Source of the DNA: Mytilus trossulus
Taxonomy: Eukaryota
DNA length: 64,000 bases
Assembly (NCBI RefSeq): GCF_036588685.1
Contig: NC_086381.1
Coordinates: forward strand, 51,398,001-51,462,000
Reading direction: 5' to 3'
A program made the translations under genes and the position numbers. The notes under the pieces were generated by a model, which saw nothing but the letters and a program-made list of their open reading frames with translations, was not told where the DNA came from and searched no databases. Within the stretch, counting starts at the first letter, position 1; each line of letters begins with the position of its first letter. Positions 37-62,500 of the stretch are shown here, piece after piece.

Positions 37-3000
37 GTGAGTATTTGAAAACATTGTTTTGATTGTTGAAGTTGTTCAAAACTTTGCCCCCCACTAAATT
101 ATAACTAAGCTGATTAAATGATAAAAAATAAAGATAAAATGTTCTGTCTGCACCAGGACTTGTGTTCGAATAAATCAAGTGAAAGATACTAAGCCTCAAG
201 TGTAATGGTTGATAATCATTAGGCGAAATGTTTCAAGCATTTAAGTTAAATATAGATGCATTATGAGCACCCCGATGAAAGCCACACGTTGAGCAGGATC
301 TGCTTTCACTTCCGGAACACCACATATCATCCCAAGTATAGTTGTGAGGTTCGTGTTGCTTAGTTTATAGTTTTCTATGTGGCGTTTGCACTATTTTGGT
401 TTGCTTTTTCTTTTTTGGCCATGGCTTTGTCAGTACTCTTTTATCTATGAGTCTGAATGTCCCTCTGGTATCTTTCGCCCCTCTTTTTACACGGCACATT
501 ATGATTTATGTTAAAGAAATCAGTGATATCGATTCCCTAGCTATGCATTTTTTTAAATGTGGGTTCATCGTTATTATCGATTATTATTATAATGTTTTGA
601 AATCACACATGTCAGAATTTAACTAGACAAATCACCAAAATCCACGTTTATCACAAGATTGGTCATCTTAAATCACTCGGTATAAAATTGTATTTACCAT
701 ATAATTCATAATCGTTTTCAATTTTATTTTCAGCATGAATAAGTTGAAACGAAAATTACCTGTTATGTTTTCAAGACGCTTCAGTGATGATATGTTTGAA
801 AAGATGAAAAAAGTTCTTGATCGAATTTTGCAGAAAGAATGGATGGTATTTTTAGTTACATACCCTACATACGTTACACTATTGACAGACATAATTTGAA
901 AAGTATAATTTATGTTATTGATATACCACTATCATGTTTTTTCTGTTTGAATGGTTTTACACTAGTCATGTTTGGGGCTTTTCATAGCCTGCTGTTCGGT
1001 ATGAGCGAAGACTGAACTTTGACATATAATGGCTGACTTATACAAATTATGACTTGGATAGAGATTTTTCTCATTGGCACTCATTTTACATCTTCTTATA
1101 TCTACATAATGATATTTTGTCATGGATTGATGTCTTTCTTTCTATTAAACAGCAGAACATTTGTATATATTATACTGTGATATGTCGAGATATTTATTCA
1201 TTTTTCCTTTTATCTAATTTTCAGCTTACAAAACTTTGACTTTTTCGAAAAACTAAGGATTTTCTTATCCCATGCATAGATTACCTTAGTCGTATTTGGC
1301 ACACATTTTGTACAATTTTGGATGCTCAATGCTCTTCAACTTTGAACTTGTTTGGCTTTATAAATATTTTGATAATGAGCGTCACTGATGAGTCTTATGT
1401 AAACATGACGCGCATCTGGCGTTCTAAATTATAAGCCTGGTACCTTTAATTGATAACTAAATCCAAACTTCAGCACCCAAATAAATTTGATTTGTTTTTG
1501 AGTAATGGATATTTGCAATTGCTTCATTTAAATTTCTAAATAAATATTGGTAAATTTATACAAATTATTTCACATTCGTCTCATATTCATATCTTTGTAA
1601 ACTTTATTTTTACAGATAACAGTATTCAATATTAAGAAAAACAAAGACGATGAATTGTGGGGAAAAATTACAGATGGAATATTAAGGGCATGGTCATTTG
1701 AAAAGAAAAAAGGTATTCAAATCTTGGAAAAATAGAATGTTTCTTAAACCTCGACTGTAACATTTATATAATGTATAATATGGTTTATTCAAAATGGTTA
1801 AAAAGCAAAATCAATAGGTAGTGCACTTTATGATAATTTTTATCTAATGCAGAATGCATCATTTGAACCAAGCAACCAACCCGAGAACTTCAATGATTTA
1901 TGACCGTTAGTGGAATCATAACTAACCAATCAATGTTCTGCTGATTGAATAATATTTGTAGCAAACATAATGCAACAACAATACACTTAGAAAGCTAATC
2001 GAAAATAATTGTTAAGTTGCACTAAATCTGAACAAATTATCAACTGTAGATCCTGTTATATATAAGGAACAGTTGAGTTATGATGATAAATATATAATAA
2101 ACCTATTTTTAAAAACATGTCTAGAATCTGATGTAATTGTTTACAGAACAGGTCAATCAGATTAAAAATGTAATAAAATAAATTTGAAGAAAACAAAAAT
2201 CGTGTTTAATACTTGAACATGTTGAAAGGAGTATATTATTCGTGATGTTTTATTCGTCTTTGAAACAGAGGCGAAAGATGCATAGATGAAAGTCAACTGA
2301 CAACGCCGTAAAAAGAAACATGTTTAACACACATAAAAAAGACGTTCACACACCTCTATCTGTACCATTTATATTGTAATAGGTATATGTATCAATGTTG
2401 TTTACGAAATTGTTGTAATATTCTTTTTTTTTCCAGATGACGTTTCTGTGACATATGATCCAATACTGCCTACTCAAATAGATTTTATTTCTAAGTATGT
2501 TTCCAATATCGATGGTTTATCGAGGAAAGAATTATTTGCTGGTTATAACCTAAAAACAAGCAGTAAAACGCAAGATTTTCATCAGGTGATTAAACCCAAA
2601 CAGATAGGGTACACACTTCAGCAGCCAGCAAATCAATGGTTTTGATTTGGTATTAAAATATTTTCGTGTAATATTTTAGTTTTTTTTTGTTTTTTTTTAA
2701 TTTGTTTATTTATTCTTTGGAAATTTAGATTTCAGACGATTTTGATAATTACTTACATGCCTTTGCGATTCAGATCCAATGCATGGGTTAATTTATCGCT
2801 ATTTTTAAAACATGGTCTCAAGTTTCCACCCGATAAATCCAGAAGCATGTGTAACATGTGTATTAGTCGACAGAATCGACAACTGCTTATTATTAACACG
2901 ATGAAGATGTAATTCATTGTTGAGTCTTAGCTATACAGATACAATCGATTTTTCTAAAAGTTTCTCAGAACTGATGAAAGTTTATAAAAAAATGTTCATA

Positions 3001-6000
3001 AAATTGAGAATGGAAATGGGGAATGTATCAAAGAGACAACAACCCGACCATAGAAATAAACAACAGCAATTTAAGCAATTTAAGCAATTAAAGCGAATTT
3101 AGTTTATAACTCATTTATTTGACAAAGAACAAAACAAATTTCGTTATCCTTGCTAGAAAAATATCATCATGTTGTTTTAGTCTTATAGTCTTTATATATT
3201 TTTGATAATCACTTGAAATAACAATAGTTCAATTCATTCACATATTTATTATCTTTTAAGCATACATTTGTGAATGCGTTTCTCGGAAAACGAACAGATA
3301 TCATTCAACAGGTACTAAGCGTTGATGCGAAATTCACATTGGCCGAAGATCAGTTCCAAACATTATGTCGTGAGGTAATATAACATTATATATTTTGTGT
3401 ATTAGATTTGTATATTTCAGGAAAACGTATTCAAAAAGTTTTATTTTAAAAATGCATATAATGAAAAACATTGAAATTCTATTTTTTCTTATAATAGTAC
3501 ATGTACGATGAAAGATTTGAATGACCATAGTTTATAAGAAATAACCATGATTCATGAAAAACAAATATAAGCGTCAATCTATTGATTATAAGTATTAATA
3601 AGTAGAATAAAGATCATGTTTAATGATTAAGGTGTCTTTGTTTGGTTGTTTATTGGTTTCTTAATACATCTCGTTTGTATTTCGTCGATAAGAGGAGAAA
3701 TAATTCTTTAAAAAAGAAAATTGTAAATATTCGAAGTAAATTTGAAGTGCTTCATTGTAAACAGAGTTTGAATTGGATTATTTGATAATAGATATATAAT
3801 TGATAATTATAATGGATGCTACTACCAATCGAATGAATTACAATAAATAAAAAAAATGTTTAAAAAAGGAAAATATGCGACGGACATTTGGTTATTCGTG
3901 CAACTGTGAGTGAAAACGAAAACAGAATAACAGAAAGGACATTTAGATATCATTCTTCAATATCAGTCAGTTGTACAATATGTCTGAAGAAATGAACCGT
4001 AACTTTCTAAGTTAACAAATAGAGACTAGTCTGATAAAAAACACAACACTTAAACATGTTTCTGACTTGGCAAATGCAGATTACGATGTTGCCGATTTAA
4101 GTATTTTGTTTTCAAAGTTAATACGCTATCACGTTATTCTCCTTTTAAATTAGAAAAAAAAGCATCAAAGAATGAGAAATATAATTTGAACAGAAAATTA
4201 TAGCAAGTATACACATTTGTAACCAAACGCCAGTCAACTTTAGAAAATGACCCAAAACAATTTACCGAAGTGCTAAAATTAATTGAAATACATGTCAATG
4301 TTTCTTCCATGCTGATTTGATCACAAATTACAAAAAGTAGGTATCTATTTTTTTTTGTATTTTTTCCAAATATTTCCATACTTTTTTTTAAGTTATACCT
4401 TAATCCGGAATTTGGAAATTATGAGAACAATGCCAAACATACGGTCGTGCAATTTCGGGAAACTATTTGAGAGCATTTTTAGGAATATTTATATAACAGT
4501 TGTTTTCCATTCATTTAATGTGTTTAAGCTTTTGATATTGCCATTTGATTAGGGACTTTCCATTTGGAACTTTTTCCAAGGCTAAGAAAGTCGGGTGCAT
4601 TGACATGGTAGTTATATCACTTAGAATAACACGAGCATAAACTTTAGAGTTTGAAAGATCCTTTATGAAACAATACGATAATTTTATTGCAGGTAGTGAA
4701 GTCAATAAGCAGCAAAACAGACAATGGCATGAACGGTTTTACATTAGTTGAGGTATTATCTCTAAATATTATACCAGAACTTTAATTGACCTGGGCTACT
4801 TATACATTAATATATCAGGAAAAGATTGAAGACAAATATTTGTTATCGATAAGAAAAGAAATACATTTGGAGGCCGGTTTCGTTTAACGACATTTGAACA
4901 ATAATTGCCCTATCAAGCCAGGGCGATATCTAACCACTTACATATATTGTAATTTACACACATAGTTGTCATTAGAATGTAATTTTATGCGACTGTCATA
5001 CAAGTGAGAGATAAGGTAGCTATAGAACATGTTTTATTCACCATTTCATACCCCAAAACATGCATGTACAAGTCAAAATCTGACAGTTGTTATCCATTTG
5101 TTTGTTGTGTTAGAGCTTTTGATTTTGCCATTCGATTACGGACTTTCTCTCAGTCGGTATTTTTTTTTTCTTCTGATGAATAGTACTTCCCAGTACTGAT
5201 GATAGTCGTTGTTCATTCGTTTTTTATTTGTTTTGTCATTTGATTTTGCCATTTGATTAGGGACTTTTCGATTTAATTTTCAACTAAGTTCATTATTTTT
5301 GTAATTTTACTTTTTAAATGTGTTTATTATCATCATACATTTGGTTATTGTAAACGATTTATTGATTTGTATAAATCTTGTATTTTTTTGGATCAGTTGC
5401 TTGAGTTAATTTGCCGTTAACTTCATATATCATACACGTGGATTTCAGAATACAAAACCGTTCGTCCTATGCAAACTAGTGTGTTTTAAACTTTATTCTC
5501 CTATTTTTAGTTGATCTTTAATATTAAGGAGTGCATGATAAAATGACTAAAAGGTTAAGAAAAAGAAGTGTGTTTGGTGGAAAAGCATCAGCTACTGCCT
5601 TTTGATTAAAATAACCACTCCCTTGTGTTCAAAAAGATATTCAAATGAACAAAAAGATACATATTATTTTTTACTTAATATATACCTTTAATGTTTGATA
5701 ATCTGGAATTTTCAAGCACTTAACGCAACGGACGAAAAAAAGCCACTTCACTTTAAATTTGTACTTACATTATAGTTTTTACATTTAGATTGTATCAGAT
5801 ATCTTCAGTTGACTCTTTTGAGGATTGTATTTGTATGTTTGTTTCAGAATGTGTACCCAGAAGCTTTCACATATTTGAAAGAAGGCAAGGGACCAGGCTT
5901 TAAAAACGCTAGGGATGCTGTTATTAAAATATCCAATAAACTTCTCCAAGGTTAGTGACAAACAGTATATTTGCAAAGTCTCCTCAGTTTGCATAACCAA

Positions 6001-9000
6001 TTGTAATATCGATTGTTAGCAGTGTTTCTTTTAGAAAACCCAAACGTTTATAAATTTTTATGGGATTGTGCATTGTTTCGTGGGTACAGGTGAACCACAC
6101 ATTTAAATGTTCAACGAATTACAAATTTTCTACAATCTTTGTATGCATAGATTACGAAATTAAATAACCACAAACATGCTAATCTTTCTCAATCCATGAA
6201 CATTGATTTCAACGAAAATAAGTGAATGCACAGTATTCAATTTTGGCATTTTAACTGTTTAATGATGATTACTTCTCATTTGATTTTTACACTTCGTTTA
6301 TCATTTGAAAGTGGTGAATAAGAATATCTTTTATTTAACGCCAACATTATTTGTACGCGCGAAATATTTTTCTGCTTTGTAGGAATCTGCTTTTCAAAAT
6401 TTGGAATGGTAACGTGCTGTAAAACTGATGCCACCAACACTATGGAAATTAAACCAAATGCAGAAATACCTGTTATTGAGTCACTGAGGGTTGCTGTAAT
6501 AAGCAATCATGTTGATCTAGCAGCAGAACTCTGGAGTCAATGTGAAAACCCACTGCGTAAGAACATGCTTTGATTTTTATTAGGGCAACCGGTTTGGGGT
6601 ATATGACATGACAAAACATGCATTGGAATGCAATGCAGTCAATTTGTTCAATAGACATTTCCATAGTGTATTTCTGTCTTGAGTGAATATCTCGATTATA
6701 CGGTTTTGTTTTAACCTTGTCGATTTTAAAAAAGACGAAAATTTGACATCTAGTTTTATATTTGTTGGGATTTTGTCGGATGCACAAATGTTCATGTATG
6801 AGTGTTAATGATAACAAATAAAGTATTGTATTTGTACAGTGACAGCTCTCGTTGCACATACATACCTTATAGCATTGGCAGACAAAGCCGAAAGTTTATA
6901 CGAGGAAGAACTTAATAAAAATCTATTATCCCATTCAAGGTACGTACAATGTACTGTTATAGTTAAAGTATATCATTTATTTTCTGATAAATATGGACAG
7001 TTAATTTCTATGAACATGATAGAGCCCTAATTTTTTAATTGTGCTCAACATCAAAAACTGCACCAGTTAGGGTTTTCTGGTAGGATAAACATAATATTGA
7101 TACTGGGTTTTCTTTTACTATACTACTAGTATTAGTTTATTATTCCTACATTCTGTTTCATTTAAACCTGTTTTCCAAAATCGATTTTGTTATTCTTTGC
7201 TTATAATTTTATAAACTACAAGTTTTTTTGGCAATATGTACAACGTCTTGAAATTGTAACTATACGAAAATAGGTTCAGATGTTCAGATTGGATACTGTA
7301 CGATGATCTAAGCTTCCGCTTAGTAGAATAAAATGTAGAAATTAGAACATACTAACAATAAAGAATATGATATCAAATACATAAAACAAATACTAAAACT
7401 ACTGTATCAGTATTCAAGACCATACAATAGTTATTGCTTTGTGCTGACGGAATCTATGGTACCAACAATTCCTTAAAGTACAATGCTGTTATGCAAAAAG
7501 TTAAAGAAACATTACAATTCCTTTGCTTTTTAGTTATACTATTTGTGAATACATGTATGAAGCTATTAATAAAACCACAGCTCATTATTCAAATTACCAT
7601 TTTGAAGGTAGAAGGACTATTTAGTATCAGATATACAAAGATAATTATAAACTTTGGATGGAAATAACTATACCTTTTGTATTGCGTGGTGTTATAAGCA
7701 TATAATGCATATACTTGACGTGTTAATTATTCTTATATTCTTATAAGAAATCATGATGACCGAGTGGTCAAACGCGTCCAACAACAGTAACATTAGCTAG
7801 TCAACTTTGAGTTTGTGGGTTCTAATTCTGAACCTATTGGGTGCGCCTGACTTCAATCATAAATGACTATTATTTTCAATGATCCACCAATAAAAACTGA
7901 GCGCATATAAATAGCACAATAGTTTTGAAAGTTGTGTGTAACACCACTTAATAATTTGTATTAAGTAATTTGACATTGAGTTACAAATGTATCTCTGGTT
8001 AAGAAGAAAAAAGTCAATTAAAAAAAAATAACAACGCAAACACAATCATTATTCACTGTTGAACGACACAATTCCTTGAAGTAGATTTGAATATACAGTG
8101 AATGTAGACAAATATTATGGTTGTGTCTCAAACTAATGAACATTGAACTACTTGTAAGTAATACTTAGCTGTACAAAAAGCATAAGTACAGAACAAGTAT
8201 AAAATATTCAAAGCTTCATTTATAGTTTTATTTTTTTTACTGCTGTGGCTGCCAGGAAGTTCTTGTCACGTGCCATTAAGCTTTTGGACAAACTATTTCA
8301 AAAAGACGAGGACATGGCAACCAAAGCTCTTGACTACACCTCTGAAGTATGGGGTCTTGAAGAAAAACCGTTACATTTTGGACACCAATTCAACTTGGAA
8401 GAATTTATTTCGCATCCCTCTGCACAGAAGGATGCTAGCAAACGGCTATTTCCCTACGAGTCTACTCAACAAAGTAGCAACATCGACACAAAAAAGAATA
8501 AAAATATCAGTCGAGAATGTACAACATTTGTTAAGGTTTTGTATGAAAAATTTTGTTAAACATTTTAATCATACTTATTATTGATAAAAAGTAACACTAG
8601 ATAATGCTATCAATATAAAATTTCCTTTCAATTTAGTAGAAACGTACATAGATATAGGAAGATGGGATATGAGGGCCAACGAGACAACTCTGCATTTAAG
8701 TCACAATTTATAAAAGTTAATCATTATAGGTCAAAGTACGGTCTTCAACACAGAGCCTAAGCTCACACGGAACAGCAAGCTATAAACGGTTCATAAAATT
8801 ACTAGTGACAAATTCAAACGGGAAAACTAACGGTCTGATCTATATATAAAAACAAACGAGAACCGTAAATCACTTATAAACCACATAAACATGATAAACA
8901 GACGACAACAACTGAACATCAGTAGTCGGTTTCACAAAAAAACGTATGACTAAGATTGGTCTAAAGTCATGAACTTATCAGTATACGATAAATCTTAGTC

Positions 9001-12000
9001 TTAAGGTTTTTTTGTGAAATCGACTTTAGATTCCTAACATAGGACAGGTGCAGACAATTGCAGCGGGATTAAACGTTTTAATGTTGCCAAACCATCTCCC
9101 TTTTCTGAAACGATAGTTTAAAATCATAACATAGAAAGACACACTATAAAATATCAATTGGAATGTGTATTTTGTATGTTTATAATAATGTATGAGTAGA
9201 GAGAAGAGATTTATAAAAACCTTTATAATATTCGCAATTTAACTATTAATTTTCATTCGTAACTTCATTTTGATAAAATTATATCTCTTTCGTAGAATAA
9301 TATGTTCATCAAAGAAACCATAGTCGCCATCAGTTGAAATTCGTAACCGGTATCGGTAAAAATAATCAAAGGTCAGAATTATCACAGTGCAATGACTTAA
9401 AAGGTAGGTCGGAAGCAGTTTTTCTTTTGGCAATTTATAAATGGAATGTTAAAAACTATATGACGAGTGAACGTGGTTGATAGATTTTATTCACCGATAA
9501 CCGTTACGAATTTCAGCTGACGGCGACTATACATGTATATGCTAATCAAAATATTCACAATCTTGAGATCAATTAGATCTATGTGTGTGCTATTAATAGA
9601 GCTATAATCTGGCTGTGTTCTACTATTTTGTCCAATTGCTGTCTTTTGGACACTTTCCCTGATTTCCATTCTCAATTTTTGCATCCTCAATTTTGACGAC
9701 GTGTTTTTACACTTGTTACTTGGCGGATGATTTTATATAACGTTTCTTGTTTTGTTTTCATTTCAATGTTATATTTAACTGTGCCATTAAAGTGCGAGGT
9801 TTGGCATGCCTTAAAACAAGGTTCAACCCACCACTTTTATTCCCCTTTAAAAGTGTCCTGTACCAAGTCAGGAAGATGGCCATTGCTATAATATTGTTCG
9901 TTTCTGTATGTGTGTTGCATGTTAACGTTGAGTCGTTTCTGCTTTCTCTTATTTTTGAGATAAGACGTGGCACGGTACTTGTCTATCCCATATTCATGTA
10001 TTCGGTTTTGATGTTATATTTGTTATTCTCGTGGTGTATTGTCTGTTGCTTGGTCCGTTTATGTGTGCTGTTGCGTTTCGGTGTTGTGTCGTTGTTCTCC
10101 TCTTATATTTAATGCGTTTCCCTCAGTTTTGGTTTGTTGCCCCGATTTTGTTTTTTGTCCATGGATTTATGAGTTTTGAACAGCGGTATACTACTGTTGC
10201 CTTTATTCTGCAGTTTGATTATTTTTTTTGAATCTTTATTGACTACAATATAATTTGATCCACATAACATTTCATTGATAATAAATACTAAACATATATT
10301 ATAGCACCATATGAACTGGAAGTCGACATGGAAATTTGTCACAGCACCGATCATCAAGCTAGTGGTTAATGTTGTAAGTCCATATGCAAAAATAATTGTT
10401 ATGTTTTCACAATAAAACTCCATTCTTGTGAGTCTTCATCTTCTTTATGAGAGTTATGCGCATTAAAAAAAAATAACACACGTATAAAACATTCCAATGA
10501 CATGTCTAACTATACCAATATACGCGAAATTGTATTGGAGTGGTTCAGGAAATATTTGATCTTGACTTAATTTTAGTGCAATTATCAACATTTGAAAAAA
10601 ATAATTGATAATTGTACGAATGTAACTTTAATTATTTCAGAATATTCCAGAATGTGATAAGTCTACCGAATTGACGCATAAAAAGTTCCATGTCACTTGA
10701 AAGAACGCGATTTGGAATTATAGCAGTTTATTTCGTTTTATTTCTATTTATATATGCAAAGGAAACTACTGCTGGTCCTTTGATTTTAATAAGATAATTA
10801 ATTAACGTTACTATCCAAATAGTTGTATTCTTAACCTCAATAATTTCAAACCTTTTTACGAAATGTTCAAAGTGAAAGTATTCGTACATAACGCTTAAAA
10901 TATCAAACTTAAATCTAGTAAATTGTAAACTTTTGTCGTTAACGAATTGATAGATGAACTCTTCAAATTTTTTAGGTGTTTTTTATACTAGCTTTAGTTT
11001 TGTTCAGCTATTTTCTCACCCGTGATCTTAACACAAAGATTTCCGTGTTAGAAGTCATGTTATTCTTTTACATGATTGGAGATCTATTAGAGGAGTTATG
11101 GAGCATGGTAAATATATTTCACTGTTACCTATATAACATAAAAGTATCAAACCTGTTTTTAGTTTTTGAAAGACGGCATTCGCGTCATTGTAATAATAAA
11201 CAGCCAATGTACATTATGGATTGGTTACATTTTCGTGAACTTTGCATGATATGAGTACCAAATAAACAAAGTTTGCTTCAAGTGTTCATATACCACTTTA
11301 TTTACCTATAAATAAAGGCAACAGTAGTATACCGCTGTTCAAAACTCATAAATCCATGGACAAAAAACAAAATCGGGGTAACAAACCAAAACCGAGCGAA
11401 ACGCATTAAATATAAGAGGAGAACAACGACACAACACCGACACTCAACACACACAGAAACAGACCAATCATCAGACAAAACACCACGAGAATAACAAATG
11501 TAACATGAAAACCATGTACATGAATTTGGGATAGACAAGTACCGTGCCACGTCTTATCTCAATATCTCAAAAATAAGAGAAAACACAAACGACTCAACGT
11601 TAAAATGCAACACAAAGAGAAACGAACAATATTATATATCACTCCATGCATTGTCTAAATTGTTAGAGGATAAAATATTACCAGCCAAAAACAAACGAAG
11701 AGTACCAAACACAACAAGTGTGCCAATAATTTATAACAAACGTTATTTACCCCGATTCGACCTAGAAATTAAAAAAGATAATTTGTAGTAACTGAAAATT
11801 AACTGTAAATATTGATGAGGAATAAGTTGCGAGTATGATATGTAGAACAGGAAAATTGTAGCCACAGATAAATGACCTTGTTTAATAAATATACTTATTG
11901 ATAATAACTCTTTCTAGGTTCGACCTCAGGATGGTAACTGGTCTCCGCAGAGAATATTGCTTTACTTGTTTAATCTATGGAACATGTTGGACTTGTTCTG

Positions 12001-15874: not shown

Positions 15875-17224
15875 CTTGAACGTATTGAATATTAACAAGG
15901 ATAAGTGAAATTTTTATTTCTTGTTGATTAAATGAACAGATGTTTTAGCGATATTTTACTTTAGCTGTTGACCTGATAATGTTTGGGTTGACTCTTTTTT
16001 TTCTAATCTTGCTTTATTGTAATTTTACTGTGTGTTTCATATTATTTCTTTTTAACTTTGTGAAACTTCAAACAGTAAACTATGTATGTTTTTGTGAATG
16101 CATTATAATAAATCTATATAATACTAATGGAAGATTTTTTAGAGCCACAACTCCTCTCAAACCATACAAATTTTTTTGTACTTCCTAAATTTGTCTTTGA
16201 AACAATGATTTTTCAACAGAAAACGGAAATTTTTTAGAAAATATTCAAATTCGGGTACCGTTATCTATCTGTGTCTTATACACGTTGGAGCATGCTAAGT
16301 CGACGTACTGCCCGCGATAAGAAGAAATGATATAAGGGAGGACAGTTAGACCTTTACGGGTTCTGTATTGTATTGTAAGTTCATCCTTTTGATGAATTAA
16401 ACGACATTTACCCTTTTCACTCGGATGCAGAACTGTCCCAAAATGATATAGAAGTTGGACGTGTCGAAGTGATCCCCCCTTTTCATGTGTGAACACAGGC
16501 TTCTGACGTTTGACCCCCCCTTCATGTTTTACAACTTTCGGGCATCTTCTAGTATCACAAATAAAAATCTTATTTACGCAACACAACATATGTATTCCAA
16601 ACGTTCTCTTAGATCACTGTATATACATTCCAAATCCCATTGCAAATACAATGTATATGCAGTCAGTGAACATTCATTAATCTCTCTACATGTTAATGAT
16701 TATCCATATGTTTAAACAAGGAGATGTGGACAATGTGTCAATGACAATGGTATAACTTTCTAACAGAGACAAACTAATATAGAAGTTTGTATCAATTGGC
16801 CACGGTAGAGTTTATTGCATATCACTGGCAAATTATATAAGGCCCTTACTTGAAAAGTAAACCAGTTGAGACGAGTAGCAAATTTTATGCCAGTAAATAC
16901 AGTAAGTGAACCAGTAAATTATCTTTTTGTAGATGGTAACGTTCGCTTGTCAATATGTTATTGTGTATATATTTTTTGACTTATTCGAGTCGGTCGTGTA
17001 TGTAACGACGTATTTGGTTTAAGACATCTCTGTTTTACACCAGAGTTTTCGATTTTACAAACAAGAAAGCACATTTAGTAGGTTTCATCATCGGTATTAG
17101 AACACCATGCATAGATATTTATCAACATGCCGACATCTTATACTTTCAGGTATTTTACATTCAATATTTTATGGTTATATTCTTTATAAAGCACAAACAT
17201 GTCTGCATTTACCAGCTAACCAAA

Positions 17225-17362
17225 TAGTTATCAAAGGTACCAGGATTATAATTTGATACGCCAGACGCGCGTTTCGTCTACATAAGACTCATCAGTGACG
17301 CTCAGATCAAAACAGTTAAAAATCCAAACAAATACAAAGTTGAAGAGCATTGATGAACCAAA
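17225..17362 (-). mobile_element. Hammerhead-bearing repeat (retrozyme/PLE-like) fragment
   Basis: Reverse-complement homolog of 1320-1460 and 41040-41180. Confidence 0.75.
17252..17311 (-). ncRNA. Type I hammerhead ribozyme (apparently intact) in an interspersed repeat
   Basis: Minus strand: UUUGAU-cuga-GCGUCA CUGAUGA GUCU-uaugu-AGAC GAAA CGCGCG UC^ UGGCGU-AUCAAA. Full catalytic core, stems I and II, palindromic stem III (ACGCGCGU), GUC cleavage triplet. Confidence 0.88.
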
Positions 17363-50563: not shown

Positions 50564-53500
50564 CTATAACAGTCAGAAAATCTTGCAGTTATATATTTAT
50601 ACGTATCTTCAAACATCAATCGGGGTTATCGTTTTTTCAACATTCACCAAATCTGTTCATTTTGTGATAACTGTAATCATTATCACGTTGAGAAAACGTT
50701 CATGTGATTTGCTAAGGTTTTTATATAATATGGAGATATGGAGGTGCATGTTTTATTAAATCTATTGCAGAAATGTGTTTAAACACCTGTAAGCAAGATA
50801 AGACATTCTTCAATAGAAGTTATTAATGATTAAAACAGCCTCATACTAGCAAAACTGTTATAGTATATCAATTACAATTCGCCTCAGTTTAAACTATACG
50901 TGTTTAATTATTCTAGCATCATATATCTGGTTATGTAAATAATTATTGACGAAATGTTTAATCTTCGATGTATTTAGGATAACGTATAATTCAAAAAGAA
51001 TAATGTGCTTATCGATTTGTTTATTTTAAAATGTGTAAATTAATTCGACCAAAGATGAATTCATTGCTTACAAGAATTGTTATTTTAATGAATAATTAGA
51101 TAGATTATTGCCAAAATTTGAGAACTGAACATTTAACATTCATTGTGTCTAGGTTATACTGTACAGTGGATGTTGGTGTATCCTGTTGTTGCCATTATAT
51201 TCGTAAATACGTTTGTCCTTAACTCAATTTTACTTTAAATTACCTGTTGTTGTTTTCTTATAACATGGACAACATGGACATTTTTTAGTATACCATAAGA
51301 AACTGAAAATTCTAAATGGAAAATTGAGTGGTGACGGTATTCTATCTTCAAAATCAATTATAACTGAATGTCGATAGTAACGCCATTTCTGTTCGGATTT
51401 TTTTCGAATTTCCTTAAACCGTGCACTGCAACAGAAACATAAATTTGTACATACAACGCTATATCAAGGAATAACAAAATTTACTAGAAATCTGAAGTCA
51501 AATGTCTATCAGATTTGTAAAATCGCCTAAACTTTATATATACTAGTGAACAAAAGAAACTATACAAGACAGTGTATTTTCTATATATAATGAAATGGAT
51601 ACCCTGTGCCAAGGTAACTAATTGTCCAATTGGTCTAAATTTTACAAAGAGTTGTTTTCTTATCAAACTGATAGATTTAAGCTAAAGATACGATCTTTTT
51701 GTTGTTGGATTTTTTTGTTGTTGTAGGGATAACGTATATACATGTTGTATAACTGTTATTAGGAAAATATTTTAGTTTCATATCTTTCAAGTGAATTATA
51801 AGTCCAATGTGATGGGTGTACAAACATTTTATTGATATGTATTACCTGTATTTTTACAGTCTATATATATATATAGTACACAATGTTACTATAATAAACA
51901 AATTCGTATTTGTATTCTTATTCTTAGATCAAAAATATATTGTTTTACTAGAAAATCCAAAAAATGGTATTAGAATTTAAAGATTTGAATGCGCTTGCAG
52001 AGAACACCTGATTTTCATCTTCAAAATCAAATGCCGACTTTTTTTATCATTTTATACAAAATACACTTGTTCCCTGTGTTCAAATAACTCAGTGTTCTCT
52101 AACTTTCCAATTTGGTCAGATTATTTTGGTCGTATGCCCTTGCTTTGTAAATAAATGTGTTTTTTTTATATTTTTACAGCTTATTTTCAGGAGTTTAAAC
52201 TTGTGTATAGCTTTTTTGATTGACTAGTATACTTCATAAATATTTAATATCAATGGCATATTACCTATATATATTCTTTGAAAATTAACTGTCTCTCTGT
52301 CATACCAATACATGGATATATTTTGTAACTTTGACAGAAATACACATTTTAAATTGTTATTTCCCGAGAGTGTCTAAATTGTCTAAATTGTCTGAACATC
52401 GATTTTACAGTTACATAATTCTGAACTATTACGGAAGTTTCATTGTTTTTAGGATTATTTCAAGCGTTATTTATGCGCACAGTTTGGTTGAATTATATAG
52501 ACACTATACCTTTATTATATGTATATAAATAGTAGCAAGAGTAGAAATTGCTCTGTCAAATAAGGCCCAATAATTTAAAAAGCGTGTCTAAGTTTGTTAC
52601 TAAAAAAAATCATTTATTCAAATTCTAAATAAAGGGTATTTCAATTGGTCATAAGCTTACTAGGAAAGAAGTAAAATCAGCAGTCCCTCCTTAATACTCC
52701 TCTTATTTCTGTATATTTTAACTATCAAATCTAAAATAAGTTTACGCACAAATATGTCACTATTTCCACTAGTAAATAATACAATATTAGTTTATATTGC
52801 ATTTCTAAACATAAGTTACGATTTCAATTTCTACAATTAAAGACACAAATTGTTTGAATAACTGTCCTCATGAACAAACAATTAGATCGACATCTTGTTA
52901 ACGATTTATACAATTTGACTTTGGCATTCATACCACATCTTCGTATCTATTTATACTATGAATACTGTTTAATTAATACATTGAATAAACACATGTATGA
53001 CATACCTGAACATTGCAATAACAATATTTAATAACAACCAGTTTGTCAACATCATATAAATCGCAGCAATTACTGGTGTTATCCAATCTCCCGTTGCACA
53101 ATTTGCGTTATCCTTGCAATCCGAATTATCATTTCCTTCAAATAAACAGATTGAAAGAATATATCATGGAAACTATAAAGGACATGGTGAACACATGAAA
53201 AAAGAAAGTAAGATTTGAATTATTGTCCAGCGTGACAATCTTCCGAAGAAACAGATTCTATAGTTAGACAATATACGTATAGTGTCTTGAAATATGAAAT
53301 GTATTTGTATGAGGCTTAGAAACGGGAAAATGCGAGGTTCTACCGAGCATTTTCCCGTTTCGTGCCGAATACAAATAAAATTCATCTTTCAAAACACTAT
53401 ACGTATATTGTTTTTATACTGAAATCGAAAAAAAATAATGAAAAATGAAAAAAATATGTAACAAAAATTGTTAAAAATGTGTTTTGAATTTCCCTCTTGG

Positions 53501-56500
53501 GGTACCATTTTAGGGAATTTCCCTATGAACGTAGTCCAGGCGGTAAGACATTGACATATTAAGGAATTAGAAAGGGAAAATGAACTTAATTAATAACATT
53601 TGATAAACATGGTATATAAATAACCAATGTGAAGACATAAAAGTTTAAATTCATAAAAGTTTGATCATTGTTACTTTACGTTGTCATGGTCGTGATGTGA
53701 CGTTGTTGATGAAATACAGTAGTTCCGGTAAGGAGGCGGGGCTATTAGGTTTGTTGAGGTCATTGACGTATAGAGGTAACGTTTATACGTATAGCTTTAT
53801 CTGTATAGTAAAATAGCTGATTGCAGTATAAATCTTTTATTATATTATGGTTAGCCCTTTATAAACAGTTTACAATGCTATTCAATAAAAAGTATGAATT
53901 GTTTGTTTGCGAATGGTTCACGAATATATGCCCATAGAGATTCACGATATTATAAGGACTTCTCAACGCAAGTTTAAAGACATTTCGTTTATTGTTTGAC
54001 AATAAATTATATAGCTATATTCTGCCAACTCTTGTACAAACAAGAATGTGTCCAACGTACACGGATGTCCTTTCGCATGCCTACTCGCATACTCATTTTC
54101 CATGGTCAATGGACCATAAAACTGGGTAAAAATATAATTTGGCATTAACAGTAGAAAAATCATACAAAGGGGAATATGTGTACTACGTTTGAAGTTGTTT
54201 GGACTTTTAACTACCTTAACCAAAAACGTAAACCTGAAACTTGCACTTTCATTTTCTATGTCCAGTGGATCATGAAATTTTGGTCAAAAATCTTATTTGG
54301 CTATAAAATTATAAAGATCAGATTATAAGGAATATGTGTACCAATTGCAAGTTTCCAGTTGATTGGACTTCAGCTTCATTAAAAACTACTTTTACCAGAA
54401 ACTATAACCTGAAGCGAGACGAACGGACAGACGAACAAGCAGACGGACAATCGCACAGAATAAACAAATAATGCCCCTCTACTATCGTAGGATGGGCTGA
54501 AAAATATGGAACGCCACAGCTGCCTTGTGATGACAAGAATCATATAATTAAGGGTAAAGACATATCATGTAGCAAATGTTATATACTATAATAATATTTG
54601 ACTATAATACTCTGTCAATTTGCAACATTCCCTACAGATAAATATTACTAAGATAAATGTATATACTATAAAGACACTTTGAAACAACATTGAGTTAAAT
54701 TTCAAACTATTTTTTCACTTTGGTATATTATTACGACACATTTGTATACTATACAGTCATCTGAATATAGCATGGAACAATTGTGTCACACTATCATGTC
54801 TTATAAGTATCGTATTTAGACATGTTTTGATATAAAGCTAACAATTCTTTTATCACAACGTTTCATCTATATAACAGTAGACTATTTGTTTACACTATCA
54901 GACCATTTAACTATACCATTATACCATTTCATCATCCCAAAAGACAAATTTTTAAATAACGGCGAAAATCATCTGAAACATTGATTATTATAATGAGAAA
55001 AGATCCTTAAGGAAATAATTTTGCGGACCTTAGGGAATCGCTTTCAAGATGAATGAATTTATCAATTTTTATGTTGCATTTGCCCTCAGTGATACAGAGT
55101 TGAAAAGACTTTGTGTCGACACGAAAGGCGACACATGTAATGATAATATAATACGTTCGTTATTTCAAGAGGGATAGGCTCAAGTCAGGGATACCTTTAC
55201 CCTTATGCCTCGTTCACACGCACATTTAGTAAATGGCAATCGAATTCGAATTACGTGTGAACGCAGTGTGTAGGTCAACAAATTACTTAAAACCTTTACT
55301 ATATCTTCCATAGATATAAATATTTGGTTTTAAAGTTTGAGGTTAACTGTGCACAACTTATTTCAAACGGGAATGCACATCTTCATTTTTACGGACATGT
55401 TATTTACCATGCCCGGAAATTAAGTAACAATTCTAGTTAATTTATCGATTTTTCAAGTAAACTTTTCTAAAAGGTTTAAAATTCAATTCTGTTATTAGAT
55501 CACAGATTATTGTTTTTAATGGTTTTAATAATGATTTTGTTATTATTTAATGAAAAGGAAACTTAATACTTATACACATTCAGGGATCTACAATCTGTCG
55601 ATACCAGTATATTGGCATTGCATAGTGTCATGGTAGAGTCATTTATCTATCTATCAGTAACTACAAGTACTTTTTTGTTGTTGTGATGTACAAGCTAAGT
55701 ACCCGGCCACGTCAACAGAAGATCTGCTATGATTGCCAATGAGACAAATCGCCACAGGAGACCAAAATAACACAGAAATTATTAACTATAGGTCACCGTA
55801 AGGCCTTCAACAATGAGAAAAGTCTATACCGCATAGTCAACTTTAATAAACAAAAAAAAGACCCAGAAATGTCAATGTAAAACGGTTCAAACGAAAAAGA
55901 TAAAAGCCTTAATTATTTATGTACAAAAAATCAATTGAAAAAATATGTAATACATAAACAAACGAAATGCACTGAATTACAGACTCCTGTCTTGAACAGG
56001 TATATATATATATATATATACAGCATGTGGCGGGGTAGTAAATGTAAGGGGGGTCCCAATCCGTCCCAGACCTTGAACAGAGGTATAACATTACAATATT
56101 AGAACGAACTATACAAGTCAGTCGAAAAAGGCTTAACTCATCAGATGGACAAAATACAAGTGAACGTTGCCGGTTACTTGTACATCCCAATAAAAAAAAA
56201 TTCTATGTACATAACTGACTTAACTGACAGCTAGTACAAAGAAACTTACTACTAATGAAAAATTCATGCATCTAAGAGTAAGATTTTCGCATACTTATTC
56301 ACATACAAATTAGCAGAAACTATGTCATATCCATACGTCCTTTAATCTAGTATAATGATGATTTTTACACCAATGTCATGCATTTTAATTAAACATCTGC
56401 GGTCTTGATTTTGTTTCAGCTTTAAGTTGATAATAATATTTAATAATATATCTAAATTATCATGGGTACGGGATATATGGTTAGAGTTAAGGGTAGCACA

Positions 56501-59500
56501 TTTTTCACCGTACCTGTCAACATGATTTGAAAACACTTGCTTTAAGTAAACTCTCTCAAAAACAGCTTGCTTTCATGATTGTTAAAATTTGGCATAAAAT
56601 TATATAGGCCATCTTTGTGTTTTAGGATTGCATGTTATTTAGTTTTTGTGTGGGTTTTTTTAGGAGTACCCACCTGTATGTGCTGTCTTTCCTGTCAACA
56701 CCAAGTCTTTTCAACTCCCAATTGCTTAGGGCAAATGCAACATTAGAGTCCCATCTTTTATTTTGTTCCTAATTTTAATTCATATTCTACTTTTTGCATG
56801 TTCCTCATTGTGGATTTCACCCTCAGCTTAGACTTAATTCTGCTATGTTTTTTTTTTTTACAAAAGTGTAATTTGGCCAGATCATTAAAAATGTCTTCAC
56901 ACACTGAAGAATAAAAGTACTCATAAAAGGTGTTTGTATCGTGTGACACATTTTTCGTAAAGGAAACTTCCAAAATAACTTAAAAAAAAAAGATGTGGTA
57001 TGATTTCCAATAAGACAACTGTTCACACGAGACCAAAATGACACAGACATCAACAACTATAGGTCACCGTACAGCCTTCAACAGATAGCCAGGCCCATAC
57101 TGCATATTTAGCTATAAAAGGCCCCGATATGACGATATAAAACAATTCAAACGAAAAAACTAACGGCCTTATTTATATAAAAAAATGATGAAAAAACAAA
57201 TATGTAACACATAAACAAACGACAAATCGTTTTACTTTAAAATATGATAAAATGGATGTAAAACCTTCTAAGGTATCCATAAATAGTTCTCCATAAACCT
57301 GCCAGTATGGAATTTGTAGAATTGACCATGTTCTCCAATTCTCAGTATTACTTGGTCCTGCGATTGTATGGCTTGGATACACATTGGCATGATACACAAC
57401 GCCAGCAGCCAATATAAGGATGATAAGTATTACCAAATACTGCATCAAATCCACAAGCTGAAAACATAAATTCTGTTTGATACGAACATGCTTAGAAATA
57501 TATTTTTCTGTACATGTTTAAGCCACTTTATTATGTTTATCAAATGTAATTACCCATTGGAAGGTTGGGTCCTTTAGAAAAGTGTGTATTACATTTATAA
57601 CATGAAATGCATTTTGATAAACAACATATCGTCAGTTATATTCGATACCAAAATATTGAACCTTCAAAAAAAATTAAAGAGATTAATAAATTAAGAAAGA
57701 CAAAACATTAGCCGGATAAGGGACGCCCTTTGTTAGCTATATATAATTACTCCGACTATACATATACAATTCAGTTTTTTTAGTTCAAGTTTCAATAGTT
57801 CACAGTATTCTTATTTTTATGCCAGTGCCAAACAAACTTGGTCCTGGAATATGAACCGACAGAACCCGGTTATCAGCCTAGAATACAAACACGTGTTAGT
57901 TTTAAATTAAACTGTAGCAATGTTACCATGATTAATGAACAGGATGAGTATTTCGACCAAAAAAGTCTCTTCGGTAGATATCCTTATATATTGATGTCTG
58001 CTAATCATTTACTTTGAATTGAAATGAATTGAAATTGTTGATTTTGTTAACGCTGACATGCTGTCGATACATCGATACTTTCACAACTATAATTTGTTTA
58101 TATTATCCATTTGTTTGATCATTTTTTTATAATAGTTTTTGCCATTGATTTTGTCATTTGATAGGACAATTTCCATTTGGATTTTTCAAGAAGTTGTTTA
58201 TTTTACTTCTTACAAGATAGTTGAGATCTCAAAATTTATTTTTGTTAAGTAACATGTTAAGAAATACTGTTTGGATTAACGGTTACCTTTGAATATTGCC
58301 TGGATGTTGCATGTCGGATAATAGATCATTGCAAAATGCTTTGAGTTCTTGCGAAAGGGACGACATAAATTCAATAAATCAATTAATGTATAAACGATGT
58401 ATTTTGAACTTTTAAATGAACGGTCCTGTTCTTCAAAATCTTTTTTTTTAATTTGGACCCAATTTTATATCACGTGTTATAAATACATTAGCACTAAAAC
58501 AACAATTTTATATGTGCTTGTTTTTGTTCAAAACGTAAAACCATAGTCACCATGTCATGATTTTGTCTACTTTCATTAGGAGTTACAGCATAATAAAATC
58601 AACGGTACCAATTTTGTTGCACCAGATGCGCATTTCGACAATAAATGTCTCTTCAGTCATGCTCGTGGCCAAAATATTTGATATCCAAAGCATATATAAA
58701 AGATGAAGAGCTATAATCCAAAAGGTCCAAAAAGTATAGCCAAATTCATGAGGAATCAGAGCTTTGCATGAGGGAGATACGTTCCTTAATTTATAATAAT
58801 TTCTAATATTTTGTAACAACAAATTTTAATAACACAAAAAATCCGTATTTTCATGCCAGTACTGAAGTACTGGCTACTGGGCTAGTGGCATAACTGTATT
58901 GTAAACAACAAAAGAGTGTCTAATCTGCATTGAACTGTTCTTTTATTCTATACTGGTGTTGTAATTGTTTGTATAGTATTGGATTGAATATGGTTTGTGG
59001 AACCTCTAAATCAAAGAAGGAATAATTGCACTTATTTTTACGTTAGTGGTCCCATCAAAATTACCTATATACAACGTTGGTTGTGAGACCCTTAAATTAA
59101 AAGAAGACAATACAGCTTTTTTTTACATGAAGGGTCCTATTGAAATTAGCTATACATATACCGTAGATTATAAGACCCCTTAATAAAAGAGACATTATAG
59201 TACTCTTTTACCTTTTGGGTCATATCATAATTACCTATATATAATATAGGTTGTTAGACTCCTAAAGTAAAAGAAGACATTAAATCACTCTTTTGCTATG
59301 AGCATCCGAAATAGTTTAATCAGAAACAAAATGAAAGGACGTCAAGATATAGAATTTCATTCACTTAAGCTGGGGTCACACATTCACGATTTTTACTACA
59401 GTTCTTGACAGGACCATTCCCGATTAAAATTTATTAAAAGTCCGATCAAGATCCTGTGAATCGTGGATGGAAATTCAAACTTAAATTAAAATTTGTGAAA

Positions 59501-62500
59501 AAAATAATTTGATCACGACAACAATCAGATAGTGTCCAGGAAGCACCGATATTCAACCGTTTCTAAGCAAATAAGTCCCGATAATCCCGTTCTGAATCCG
59601 CTTCTAATCCGATTTGTATTTTTCGCCAGGTAAAATTCGACCGAGTCTGTCACGACTGCGTCCCGACTCTACCGAATGTAATCCGACTAAGATCAGACAG
59701 TGACCAGACAGTGAACCGACGCTGACGGAAGTTATTTGTTCGAAAACTGTCGGCATATTCGGGATGATCAGGTACGGTCGGAACGTAATCCTATCACGGT
59801 CCGCTCTACCGCACTGCAAACGGCTTTGTCTTGTATTCTGTAGTTGTCGGGACTCTGACGTGGGTATCATTGACGAATTTCGTATTAATAACGGGACTCA
59901 ATCGTCAGAAAAACAGCAATGAAAAATTACTCCGGATCATTCCCGTTCAACAGGACACCGTCCAGAATACACAAGACATTGTTCGGAATTCAATCCGATA
60001 CAGCAGAATCTGTCACCACAAAGCCACGATTGTAATCCGATTAGACAAAATCGGCTGAGTTGCCCCGAATGTTACGGGACGCACCTAACTGTCGGGATGC
60101 TTTGCCGAACTATTCGGACCCTTCCCGATCCGTAGGAATCTGTTACGAACTAAAACGAATTTGTTCAGACAATGATAGGACATTCCAGATAATTGAGGAT
60201 AGCAATCCGACTTTTTCACTTCTTATATCGTATTGCTGTCTGATCTCAAACGGGAGCAATAATCGGCAATGTGTGAACCCCGCATTACAAAAAGATTAAG
60301 TTTTGATATTAATACCAAAAAATATGTTGATGAAGTGGGACCCCTAAAGTCAAATAAAAAAATGTCAGGACCCCTAAACTACTTTCACTTTAGGGGTCCC
60401 TACGCAACTGTTAAAGGGAAGAGGGTCCCACAGTATATACAAAATGCTATATACTGTTGTTTTTAAAATATATACTGGTGAATTAATTGTTTACATTGTA
60501 TTGGCTTGTATATAGCATGTAGAGGTTGTTGGAATTTTTTTAATTCTATCATTTCTAACAATAGTCACATTAGATTAAATCAAATTACATAGGCTAAATT
60601 ATAGTACATTCGTTTCTTAATTTGTAAATATATTATACTAACCATTTCTTTCACCATGATTATGATTATACCAAACCGTTTAGACAATAACAGGAAATTT
60701 AATAGTCGAAGGAACATGATAAACAAAGCTATACTGTATATTCGCCTTGTATGTGCTATCAAATCTGAGTCCAAAATATGCATGCAAAATCCGAGTATGT
60801 ACAATATGAAGCACAGCAAATCCAAAATGTTCCAAATATTAAATATGTGGAGAAATATTCTTTGTGGTGACCAGTGGCAATCTTTTTGCGGACGAATCTA
60901 TAATGAAAACAATATGGAATTACCATACAACCTGCACAATATATACCTGTCATCAGGTAAAGGAAATACAATTATGTAATAGTAACTTTCATTTTCATGT
61001 CCATTAGTTAAACAAAGAACAACAGGCAGATGAATAAACAGCAAAAAAAATGTATAGCATGCTTTACAAGAGAGGACCCAGTATAAATATATTTGCATCA
61101 TAATTATCAACATTTTAAAGTATAACTATCATTACTAAAGGCAACAGTAGTATACCACTGTTCAAAATTCACAAAACGATAGAGAAAAACAAATCCGGGC
61201 AACAAACCAGAACCGACGGAAATGTATCAAATATAAGAGAACTACGACACAACAGAGACGCAACAACGACTATACTCGAACTATAATGTAACAATTGCCA
61301 TTTTCCTGTCTTCGTACAGGGCATTTTATGAAGAAAAAAAATGGTGGTTTGAACCTAGTTTTGTGGCATGCCAAACCTCCTGCTTTAATGGCAATGTTAA
61401 TTATAATTTTAAGATGAGAACATTACACGACAGGGTGACAAAAAATAAACAGATAAACGGTAGAAAATATAGGACAGAGAAACAAACGAATATTATTCAC
61501 TTACCATGCTCCATATTTCCTCTAATAAATCACCCAACATGTATATGAAGATCAAACCTTCTAGTAGATTAATTGAACCAGGCTGCAGGTCCCGAGTGAG
61601 GAAATAGCTGAACATCATTAAAGCCGTGATGAAAAATAACTGAAACATTAGTTTATTTTTTATAAAGAAGACCAATGTTGTCAGTTTAATTTGGATTTCA
61701 ATAATCATTAAATGACTGGACATCCGTATATATAATAACATACATTTTAAAGGCAATGTTTCGGTATTAGTTAAATCACCCTGCTATCATCAAATAAACA
61801 TTATGAAATGTAAAACTGGTAAGGGAAATTGTTGTTATTTTGTATCCTATTTTACCACGGATGAAATCTTTGCATTATGACTGCTGTTCTATTGATATGT
61901 ATAAGCCATCAAAAAAATGTTGGACATATATCAACATAGAATGTTACGAGTAGCTACGATTCCGGACCCATGTTTTGTTGAGTTATTTTATTATTATATT
62001 ATCTTTTGGATTTCAAATATTTGAGATTGAGCAATGTTTAAGATATATTATCAGTCCAAATTCACACTTTATTTTATCAAAAATACTGTGGTGGTACATT
62101 TATGACTATTAATACTACGTAAGAACAGATTGGTACTCTGGCTTCAGGACCGGTACTAGCATTTAATACTTTGATTAAATATTTTTTCTGTATATATCCT
62201 TAAAGAACATTCTAACTAGAAAACAACAACGACATTCTGAACTAGAACAAATTCATAACGATTTTTTAAAAAATTCTGAAGGGTGCGGGAATTTATCGCT
62301 ACATTGAAGACCTGTTGGTGACCTTCTGATGTTGTTGTTTTTTCTTTAGTCGGGTTGTTGTCTGTTTGACACATTCCCCATTTCCTTTCTCAATTTTATT
62401 TGGTATAATTTGAAATCGAATATCCACAAAAATGCATTACAATACATTTGTACTTGCAGTTTTAAAAGACAGGAAATTAAACAAACCATACGTCACCAAC

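What the first reader, a model, noticed from the sequence alone, without database searches (positions are those of the whole stretch)
1238..62230. Dense family of hammerhead-bearing repeats (at least 6 copies in 64 kb), possibly circularly permuted like retrozyme monomers
Copies at 1238-1460, 17225-17362, 37368-37426, 39245-39295, 41005-41180 and 58583-58885, with likely remnants at 57943-57978 and ~62000-62210. In the ~62000-62210 remnant, sequence resembling the 5' end of the 58885 copy (gtact.gcat..aatac...gatt) follows the ribozyme region instead of preceding it, as expected from tandem or circular RNA templates (weak, by eye). The four intronic copies in sense orientation of the + genes (1238, 37368, 39245, 41005) all have disabled cores, while the cleanest copy lies beyond the channel A stop and antisense to it. 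This hints at selection against pre-mRNA cleavage.
Basis: partly seen in the sequence, partly recalled or inferred. Interest (0 to 1): 0.7.

Follow-up and report, generated by a model that had tools for sequence, protein, structure and literature searches.

The report
Mussel retrozyme carries Naiad start signal
These repeats are copies of a known small ribozyme-bearing jumping RNA of mussels; they show no clear sign of being disabled by orientation in introns, but many end just before a folded RNA signal that also opens Naiad retrotransposons, which likely identifies the enzyme that copies them.

Summary
The copies are real. They are Mytilus non-LTR retrozymes (350-355-bp units, one type I hammerhead each), a published kind. 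Tandem arrays abound (9,492 exact F1 hammerheads), and the window's density is ordinary (14 loci in 200 kb of fixed positions). The intron-selection idea is not supported. Among 102 intronic copies in 39 gene spans, 52 are sense; intact ones are 8 sense and 13 antisense (p=0.23), so a mild bias is not excluded. Not found in print: the unit carries a stem-loop 33-48 nt past the cut site that also opens an intact Naiad Penelope-like element with no hammerhead core; 6 of 13 outer pairs differ and all still pair. Insertions of both elements end at the base before it, and 11 published Naiad consensuses start with it. Likely mechanism: Naiad RT starts internally there, so copying past the cut site needs a circular or uncleaved RNA. 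This scan noted the same link twice before, on other DNA.

The parts
1216..1459 (+). Old 5'-truncated F1 retrozyme copy; GAAA strand of the core destroyed; sense in an intron of TRPM gene A (exons 735-848 and 1616-1711); ends at the family's fixed 3' end
17222..17366 (-). Young F1 copy (96-98% to relatives); perfect type I hammerhead at 17258-17301; 3' end at the base before the stem-loop; 7-bp target duplication; about 1.35 kb past the last homologous TRPM-A exon, antisense
37368..37433 (+). Short F1 copy with a 15-bp deletion removing stem III, the cut site and the 3' strand of stem I; sense in an intron of the lectin-like membrane gene
39211..39286 (+). F2-related copy; G12 changed to A at a CpG; sense, intronic
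41003..41184 (+). F3 (older subfamily) copy; A9 changed to G and stem I broken; sense, intronic
57609..57975 (-). Very old F2-like copy of about 1.08 units running hammerhead to hammerhead (permuted/tandem remnant); both cores dead; sense in an intron of minus-strand TRPM gene B
58591..58888 (-). Young F2 copy (96-97% to relatives); all core bases and stems II and III kept, one mismatch in stem I; 6-bp target duplication; ends at the fixed 3' end; SENSE in the 57457/60640 intron of TRPM gene B
61987..62082 (+). Weak F2-like remnant, core destroyed; would be antisense in a TRPM-B intron
   Evidence: E 2.3; beats 200 of 200 shuffles; next exon upstream
5199..5316 (+). 3'-end fragment of a Naiad Penelope-like element, ending one base into the register of the shared stem-loop; more fragments at 4965-5147 and 40401-40573
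735..15871 (+). Host context: TRPM-like channel gene A (exons by tblastn; starts upstream of the window)
29577..42500 (+). Host context: lectin-like single-pass membrane protein gene
51239..61639 (-). Host context: 3' exons of TRPM-like gene B on the minus strand (continues beyond the window)

Best explanation
The repeats are copies of the mussel non-LTR retrozyme, a 350-355-nt non-coding unit with one type I hammerhead, and they are likely copied into the genome by a Naiad Penelope-like retrotransposon whose 5' stem-loop they carry. Shown here: tandem arrays, 5'-truncated copies with a fixed 3' end, a stem-loop 33-48 nt after the cut site shared with an intact Naiad, pairing-preserving changes between the two, and the same insertion end for both. 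Published for the congener: self-cleavage and circular RNA. Inferred: Naiad protein binds the stem-loop, nicks DNA and starts cDNA at the base before it. On a cleaved linear monomer that would copy only 33-48 nt, so longer copies and arrays would come from circles or uncleaved multimers. Dead cores in the window likely reflect age and CpG decay rather than orientation.
For: Arrays of 350-358 bp with one hammerhead per unit. 3' ends within 5 nt of the stem-loop start: F1 44 of 107 BLAST hits, Naiad 49 of 88 and 46 of 66 (two overlapping queries), with 0 of 88 and 1 of 66 Naiad hits running further. 4 of 4 full Naiad copies with a downstream flank end at the base before the motif. A covariance model from 6 retrozyme rows finds 8 of 8 Naiad sites (21 bits, E about 0.003) and, apart from one retrozyme insertion in L251, nothing in 14 other GIY-YIG loci. 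Of 13 pairs in the two outer helices, 3 change on both sides and 3 on one side, and all still pair. Both forms fold better than 200 of 200 shuffles. The ORF has N-terminal GIY-YIG, CxC, DKA and YIDD and by eye is close to published Naiad_Mgal. The 11-base core occurs 11 times in the Naiad supplement, each time near the start of a Naiad consensus, from bivalves to hemichordates. Target duplications of 6 bp or more: 16 of 57 against 36 of 477 shuffled pairs. Internal RT initiation at a stem-loop is shown in vitro for another PLE (PMC11167929). RNA run X24 gives 6,200 reads, about 4:1 on one strand, 365 of them across the unit junction.
Against: No biochemical test. The retrozyme-to-Naiad covariation is one comparison (two similar Naiad rows), and wider covariation was read by eye from printed passages. 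Only 30 of 149 GIY-YIG matches were examined, plus 10 longer stretches, so another PLE family with the motif is not excluded. No pile-up of 5' ends at the cut site: 9 of 99 in the bin against 8 and 6 beside it. Wrap-around reads cannot tell circles from read-through of arrays, no pile-up of read ends was listed, and the run may be from another Mytilus species. In PMC11167929 uncleaved RNA was the main substrate. The published mussel retrozyme sequences could not be seen.
Confidence: 0.78

Rival explanations
1. One reading: intact hammerheads in sense orientation cut host pre-mRNA, so selection removes or disables them.
For: Trend in that direction: intact 8 of 52 sense vs 13 of 50 antisense; strict cores 6 vs 13, p=0.077. 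Copies are rare in low-CpG, presumably methylated gene bodies: 6 in 37 stretches vs 130 in 102; 1 in 20 myosin stretches.
Against: 52 of 102 intronic copies are sense; at least 6 strict-intact sense intronic copies exist, one with two cores; 58591-58888 is a near-intact sense copy in this window. Read-level ratio 1.39 vs 1.43 (306:226 without the two stem-III positions, summed). Naiad 3' ends, which have no ribozyme, are about as depleted in low-CpG stretches (9 vs 106, p=0.29), as are 3 of 9 control repeats.
Confidence: 0.15
2. A canonical hammerhead-bearing PLE (C-terminal endonuclease) mobilises the retrozyme; the Naiad-like stem-loop is a relic of origin or serves another role such as transcription or RNA stability.
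For: Intact C-terminal-EN PLE frames exist in the genome (911, 901, 784 aa). Literature points to hammerhead-bearing PLEs (PMC7229834; bioRxiv 2026.07.22.740005 for Xenopus).
Against: Those loci show no match to the stem-loop model and no shared end was seen. A relic would not be expected to fix the insertion end in three subfamilies and in Naiad at the same base.
Confidence: 0.1
3. The template is an uncleaved multimeric transcript read from arrays or host genes, not a circle; circles are a by-product.
For: Most sense-strand reads run through the cut site. Cleavage of the mussel ribozyme is slow (about 0.1 per min, PMC7229834). Uncleaved RNA was the dominant substrate for the anole PLE (PMC11167929).
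Against: Circles are the main form in mussel tissue (PMC7229834). Near-identical units within young arrays (98-100%) fit repeated passes round one template, though recent DNA-level duplication fits too.
Confidence: 0.3
4. Long arrays grow mainly at DNA level (unequal crossover, satellite-like) after a short insertion.
For: An array with about 70 listed exact matches spans C1:269-296 kb; one of at least 16 cores lies in T166.
Against: Short arrays of 2-6 units are scattered, with the same fixed 3' end and variable 5' end as single copies. This rival can explain length but not the dispersed copies.
Confidence: 0.2

Closest known systems
Mytilus galloprovincialis non-LTR retrozyme (Cervera and de la Pena 2020, PMC7229834)
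   Same: Genus, 350-390-bp tandem units, one type I hammerhead per unit, two related ribozyme families, low GC (38.6%), no coding frame, LTR, PBS or PPT seen.
   Different: Probably a congener (exon 100% identical to an M. trossulus protein); more copies (9,492 exact F1 cores; about 90,000 loci of all ages by extrapolation). The parts read name no specific partner, no fixed 3' end and no stem-loop. Sequence identity to the published clones could not be tested.
Naiad clade of Penelope-like elements (Craig et al. 2021, PMC8557442; Naiad_Mgal, Naiad_Mcor)
   Same: The partner candidate has N-terminal GIY-YIG, CxC, DKA, no canonical hammerhead, tandem 4,277-bp units and 5'-truncated copies.
   Different: The conserved 5' stem-loop and its sharing with a retrozyme are not mentioned in the main text (0 hits for stem-loop or hairpin). 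The retrozyme shares only about 70 nt with it.
Xenopus retrozymes as non-autonomous PLE derivatives (Li, Clavereau, Pollet 2026, bioRxiv 10.64898/2026.07.22.740005)
   Same: General claim that PLEs mobilise non-LTR retrozymes; depletion from genes.
   Different: Based on pLTR homology and co-occurrence in vertebrates; no mussel, no Naiad partner, no structure, no initiation register and no orientation test in parts 1-3 of 5.
Anolis Poseidon PLE internal initiation (Frangieh et al. 2024, PMC11167929)
   Same: RT starts inside the RNA at a stem-loop, and genomic ends mark the start site.
   Different: An autonomous element with its own hammerhead and the start site inside the ORF; here the site is upstream of the ORF and borrowed by a non-coding unit.

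Membership tests
Metazoan non-LTR retrozyme | Short tandem units of about 150-450 bp, each with one type I hammerhead | tested here: met
   Periods 350-358 bp, one core per unit; Rfam Hammerhead_1 33 bits vs cut-off 34
Metazoan non-LTR retrozyme | Low GC, non-coding, no LTR/PBS/PPT | tested here: met
   38.6% GC; no long ORF over the window copies; PBS/PPT not searched by a dedicated tool
Metazoan non-LTR retrozyme | Dispersed retroposed copies, target duplications when present larger than 4 bp | tested here: met
   Fixed 3' end with variable 5' end; duplications of 6 bp or more in 16 of 57 vs 36 of 477
Metazoan non-LTR retrozyme | Transcribed | tested here: met
   6,200 of 8.7 million reads of run X24, strand-biased; one run, species label coded
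Metazoan non-LTR retrozyme | Self-cleavage | tested here: inconclusive
   Sense depth falls 18% vs 4% antisense between 1592 and 1600, but the contrast is weaker, clipped F2 reads could cause it, and no end pile-up was listed
Metazoan non-LTR retrozyme | Circular RNA form | not testable with these tools
   365 wrap-around reads fit circles or array read-through; circles shown for the congener in PMC7229834
Published M. galloprovincialis retrozyme family | Sequence identity to clones MN642551-MN642576 | not testable with these tools
   Supplement too large to read; no Mytilus text in PMC4918200 supplements
Naiad PLE (partner candidate) | N-terminal GIY-YIG, CxC linker, DKA motif, C-terminal RT | tested here: met
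   GIY-YIG at 138-228, CDC 443, DKA 570, YIDD 856 of 1,011 aa
Naiad PLE (partner candidate) | No canonical hammerhead | tested here: met
   No CUGANGA or CCGANGA on the sense strand of two units; no Rfam hammerhead at E up to 5
Non-autonomous partner of Naiad | Shared cis element at the insertion end | tested here: met
Non-autonomous partner of Naiad | Mobilisation in trans by Naiad protein | not testable with these tools
   Needs an in vitro or cell assay

The most novel reading that the evidence does not exclude
Naiad retrotransposons across invertebrate phyla carry an undescribed 5' RNA structure that sets the reverse-transcription start. The mussel retrozyme is a hammerhead circle that captured this structure: because the start lies only 33-48 nt behind the cut site, circularisation is what lets the enzyme copy the whole unit and roll on into arrays. 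This names the enzyme, the recognition element and the reason for circularity of an animal retrozyme.
Probability: 0.55. Interest if true: 0.75.

Novelty: new variant of a known kind. Interest (0 to 1): 0.57.

Why it matters
Which enzyme spreads animal retrozymes, and why they form circles, has been open since 2020; papers propose 'some PLE' from shared hammerheads or pLTR homology. Here the candidate is a specific, intact, recently active Naiad that lacks a hammerhead core, with a 70-nt structure and a single-base start site that can be tested directly in an assay of the type already published for another PLE. A portable RNA signal for internal priming on circles would also bear on how viroid-like RNAs get into genomes. 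The intron result is a useful negative: intact ribozymes in sense orientation persist in mussel introns.

Tried and rejected
Gene-first sampling in myosin genes gave 1 copy in 200 kb, useless for orientation. The TIGR00957 search ran under a stricter filter and gave 6 matches; not used. The P450 search was not used. A 29-nt match between the retrozyme tail and DNA upstream of three Naiad loci was rejected: it is a tiny retrozyme insertion in a 270-305-bp repeat whose other copies lack it. Ribozyme-specific depletion from low-CpG genes was rejected: it beats pooled control repeats (p=9e-5) but not Naiad ends (p=0.29), and 3 of 9 control families are as depleted. The first 5'-end histogram missed short copies through a reference with two tails; redone, with no spike at the cut site. 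A permuted hammerhead in this Naiad (lead from earlier notes): no core string found. MFE folding of the window hammerheads was uninformative. The look-up of sequencing runs: no RNA holder listed on record. Six metagenome hits to the motif pattern were mussel-like retrozyme or Naiad DNA and gave no wider range. Literature searches: retrozyme+Mytilus+hammerhead 5 papers; Naiad+retrozyme 2 listed; Naiad+non-autonomous+Mytilus+Penelope 0; Naiad+Penelope-like+stem-loop 0; hammerhead ribozyme+intron+orientation+antisense+retrozyme 1 unrelated review; seen as a listing only.
Full report
1. Observation. Self-BLAST, profile searches and Rfam confirm a hammerhead-bearing repeat at the stated places. Six copies are firm. 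The 57943 remnant is a longer old copy, 57609-57975(-), running from one hammerhead to the next. The ~62000 remnant is weak (E 2.3; better than 200 of 200 shuffles, on a region chosen after the fact). Core states by alignment: 17258-17301 perfect; 58591-58888 has every core base and stems II and III, with one stem-I mismatch; the copies at 1216, 37368, 39211, 41003 and 57609 are damaged.

2. What it is. The window is G000:C9:51398001-51462000 in a 1.30-Gb genome. Exons match Mytilus proteins, one at 100% to M. trossulus. The 17222 copy has 96-98% relatives on most chromosomes, many in arrays of period 352-358 bp with one hammerhead per unit; 9,492 exact 44-base cores exist. The 58591 copy belongs to a second young family of 350 bp, and the 41003 copy to an older subfamily. 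This fits the M. galloprovincialis non-LTR retrozyme: about 5,000 type I hammerheads in two families, 350-390-bp repeats, cleavage in vitro, abundant circles (PMC7229834; parts 1-4 of 6 read, supplement unreadable). Twenty fixed-position 10-kb stretches hold 14 loci, about 90,000 genome-wide by extrapolation, so 7 in 64 kb is ordinary (P=0.17). RNA run X24 (6% read, species label coded) gives 6,200 reads, about 4:1 on the strand expected for the ribozyme if the library follows the usual convention; 365 cross the unit junction. This shows expression, not circularity.

3. The orientation idea. tblastn puts TRPM gene A on + (735-15871), a lectin-like gene on + (29577-42500) and TRPM gene B on the minus strand. 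All six firm intronic copies are therefore sense, including the near-intact 58591 copy. For a wider test I took genes first: 40 SLC6 stretches and 80 TRPM stretches of 10 kb. L107 was dropped as a duplicate. Of 134 loci, 102 lay between mapped exons in 39 gene spans (2 added by hand exon positions; 32 outside spans set aside). Result: 52 sense and 50 antisense; intact (strict or one stem-I mismatch) 8 and 13, Fisher p=0.23, OR 0.52 (0.17-1.53); strict only 6 and 13, p=0.077; all 134 loci 13 of 71 and 16 of 63, p=0.40. Adding the window's six copies gives p=0.23. Power for a 25:75 bias was 57%. In reads, six disabling core changes split 480:345 sense:antisense and four neutral loop changes 397:277 (p=0.79; reads are not independent). 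CpG positions carry most of the listed core changes. Copies are scarce in CpG-poor stretches (6 in 37 vs 130 in 102), but so are ribozyme-free Naiad ends (9 vs 106; p=0.29) and 3 of 9 control repeats. The strong rule fails; a mild bias remains possible.

4. The fixed end and the partner. Copies end 27-48 nt after the cut site and vary at the 5' end: 44 of 107 F1 hits end within 5 nt of one point. Target duplications of 6 bp or more occur in 16 of 57 vs 36 of 477 shuffled pairs. A GIY-YIG search gave 149 matches with several intact frames; 30 loci and 10 longer stretches were examined. One family is a Naiad: 4,277-bp tandem unit, 1,011-aa ORF, N-terminal GIY-YIG, CxC, DKA, YIDD, by eye close to published Naiad_Mgal, with no hammerhead core; 47 exact matches to 40 bases of its 5' motif exist. 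Just upstream of its start codon lies a stem-loop that aligns to the retrozyme segment beginning at the fixed end. Six of 13 outer-helix pairs differ, 3 on both sides, and all still pair. A model from retrozyme rows alone finds 8 of 8 Naiad sites and none in the other PLE families; in 1.05 Mb of other DNA 22 of its 24 hits coincide with retrozyme loci listed (compared by hand). Four of 4 full Naiad copies with a downstream flank end at the base before the motif, and 49 of 88 Naiad-end hits end within 5 nt of it with none running on. The 11-base core occurs 11 times in the supplement of PMC8557442, each near the start of a Naiad consensus from mussels, oysters, other bivalves and hemichordates; by eye the outer stems differ and still pair (I did not count the Naiad entries that lack it).

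5. Mechanism. Shown: arrays, fixed ends, shared structure, shared end, expression. Published: cleavage and circles in the congener; internal RT initiation at a stem-loop for an anole PLE, whose genomic ends mark the start (PMC11167929; passages and section 3 part 2). Inferred: Naiad protein binds the stem-loop and primes at the preceding base on nicked DNA. A cleaved linear monomer has only 33-48 nt upstream of that point, so copies that include the hammerhead need a circle or an uncleaved multimer. I found no excess of copies starting at the cut site (9 of 99 vs 8 and 6 in the neighbouring bins), and cannot separate circle from multimer.

6. Known and new. The retrozyme is known. PLE mobilisation was proposed in PMC7229834 and PMC7761336 (passages) and supported for Xenopus by pLTR homology (bioRxiv 2026.07.22.740005; parts 1-3 of 5, supplements not seen). 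Craig et al. (PMC8557442; passages, section 6, supplement hits) describe Naiads as lacking canonical hammerheads and do not mention a stem-loop or hairpin in the main text. Searches found no paper linking a Naiad to a retrozyme; subscription journals are not covered. I reached the Naiad reading before looking up earlier notes; two of them (e1-9992425, e1-9872328) report the same link on other DNA. They are unchecked AI notes and are not counted as support. Their lead on permuted hammerheads (PMC10085705, passages) found no core in this Naiad.

7. Verdict. A real feature of a known kind. The interest lies in the Naiad-shared start signal. Novelty: new variant of a known kind; interest 0.57.

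Noticed in passing
window 4491-4573, 4965-5147, 5199-5316, 40401-40573 (+); weaker 9782-9878, 61288-61389: Fragments of the Naiad 3' end; genome-wide about as common as the retrozyme (136 in 159 10-kb stretches). May include a separate non-autonomous family.
   Followed up: partly
L066-L085 (myosin genes) and other stretches with CpG o/e up to 0.5: Retrozymes, Naiad ends and three other repeat families are 4- to 8-fold rarer or absent in CpG-poor, presumably methylated gene bodies, while others are not; suggests target choice or general selection.
   Followed up: partly
L040 1227-1380(-); L271 359-746(-): More divergent hammerhead-like variants with F2-like flanks; L271 keeps the stem-loop although its core string is altered.
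   Followed up: no
L250 oriented 3184-3230; window 39211-39286: An F2 subfamily with a different stem-III loop and an A at the cut position; the 39245 copy belongs to it.
   Followed up: no
L164 5961-6027(+): Isolated 27-bit match to the stem-loop model outside any detected retrozyme; possibly another element using the same signal.
   Followed up: no
G000:C12:27544243-27545068: Seven tandem copies, period 131 bp, of the Naiad 5' stem-loop region.
   Followed up: no
L029 1406-2124: Inverted and tandem arrangement of retrozyme pieces, like the inverted 5'-truncated copies described for PLEs.
   Followed up: no
G000:C1:269289-296241: Array of about 75 F1 units by length, satellite-like.
   Followed up: no
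window 9846-10212, 11308-11636, 44962-45335, 61136-61430: Another young repeat family (87-90% identity), with an inverted pair 1.1 kb apart flanking a TRPM-A exon.
   Followed up: no
window 59528-60296: GC-rich stretch (50-57%) in the TRPM-B intron with several short open frames, unassigned.
   Followed up: no
L106 and L107: Two near-identical SLC6 gene stretches in opposite orientation 9.7 Mb apart on C1; L107 was dropped from counts.
   Followed up: no
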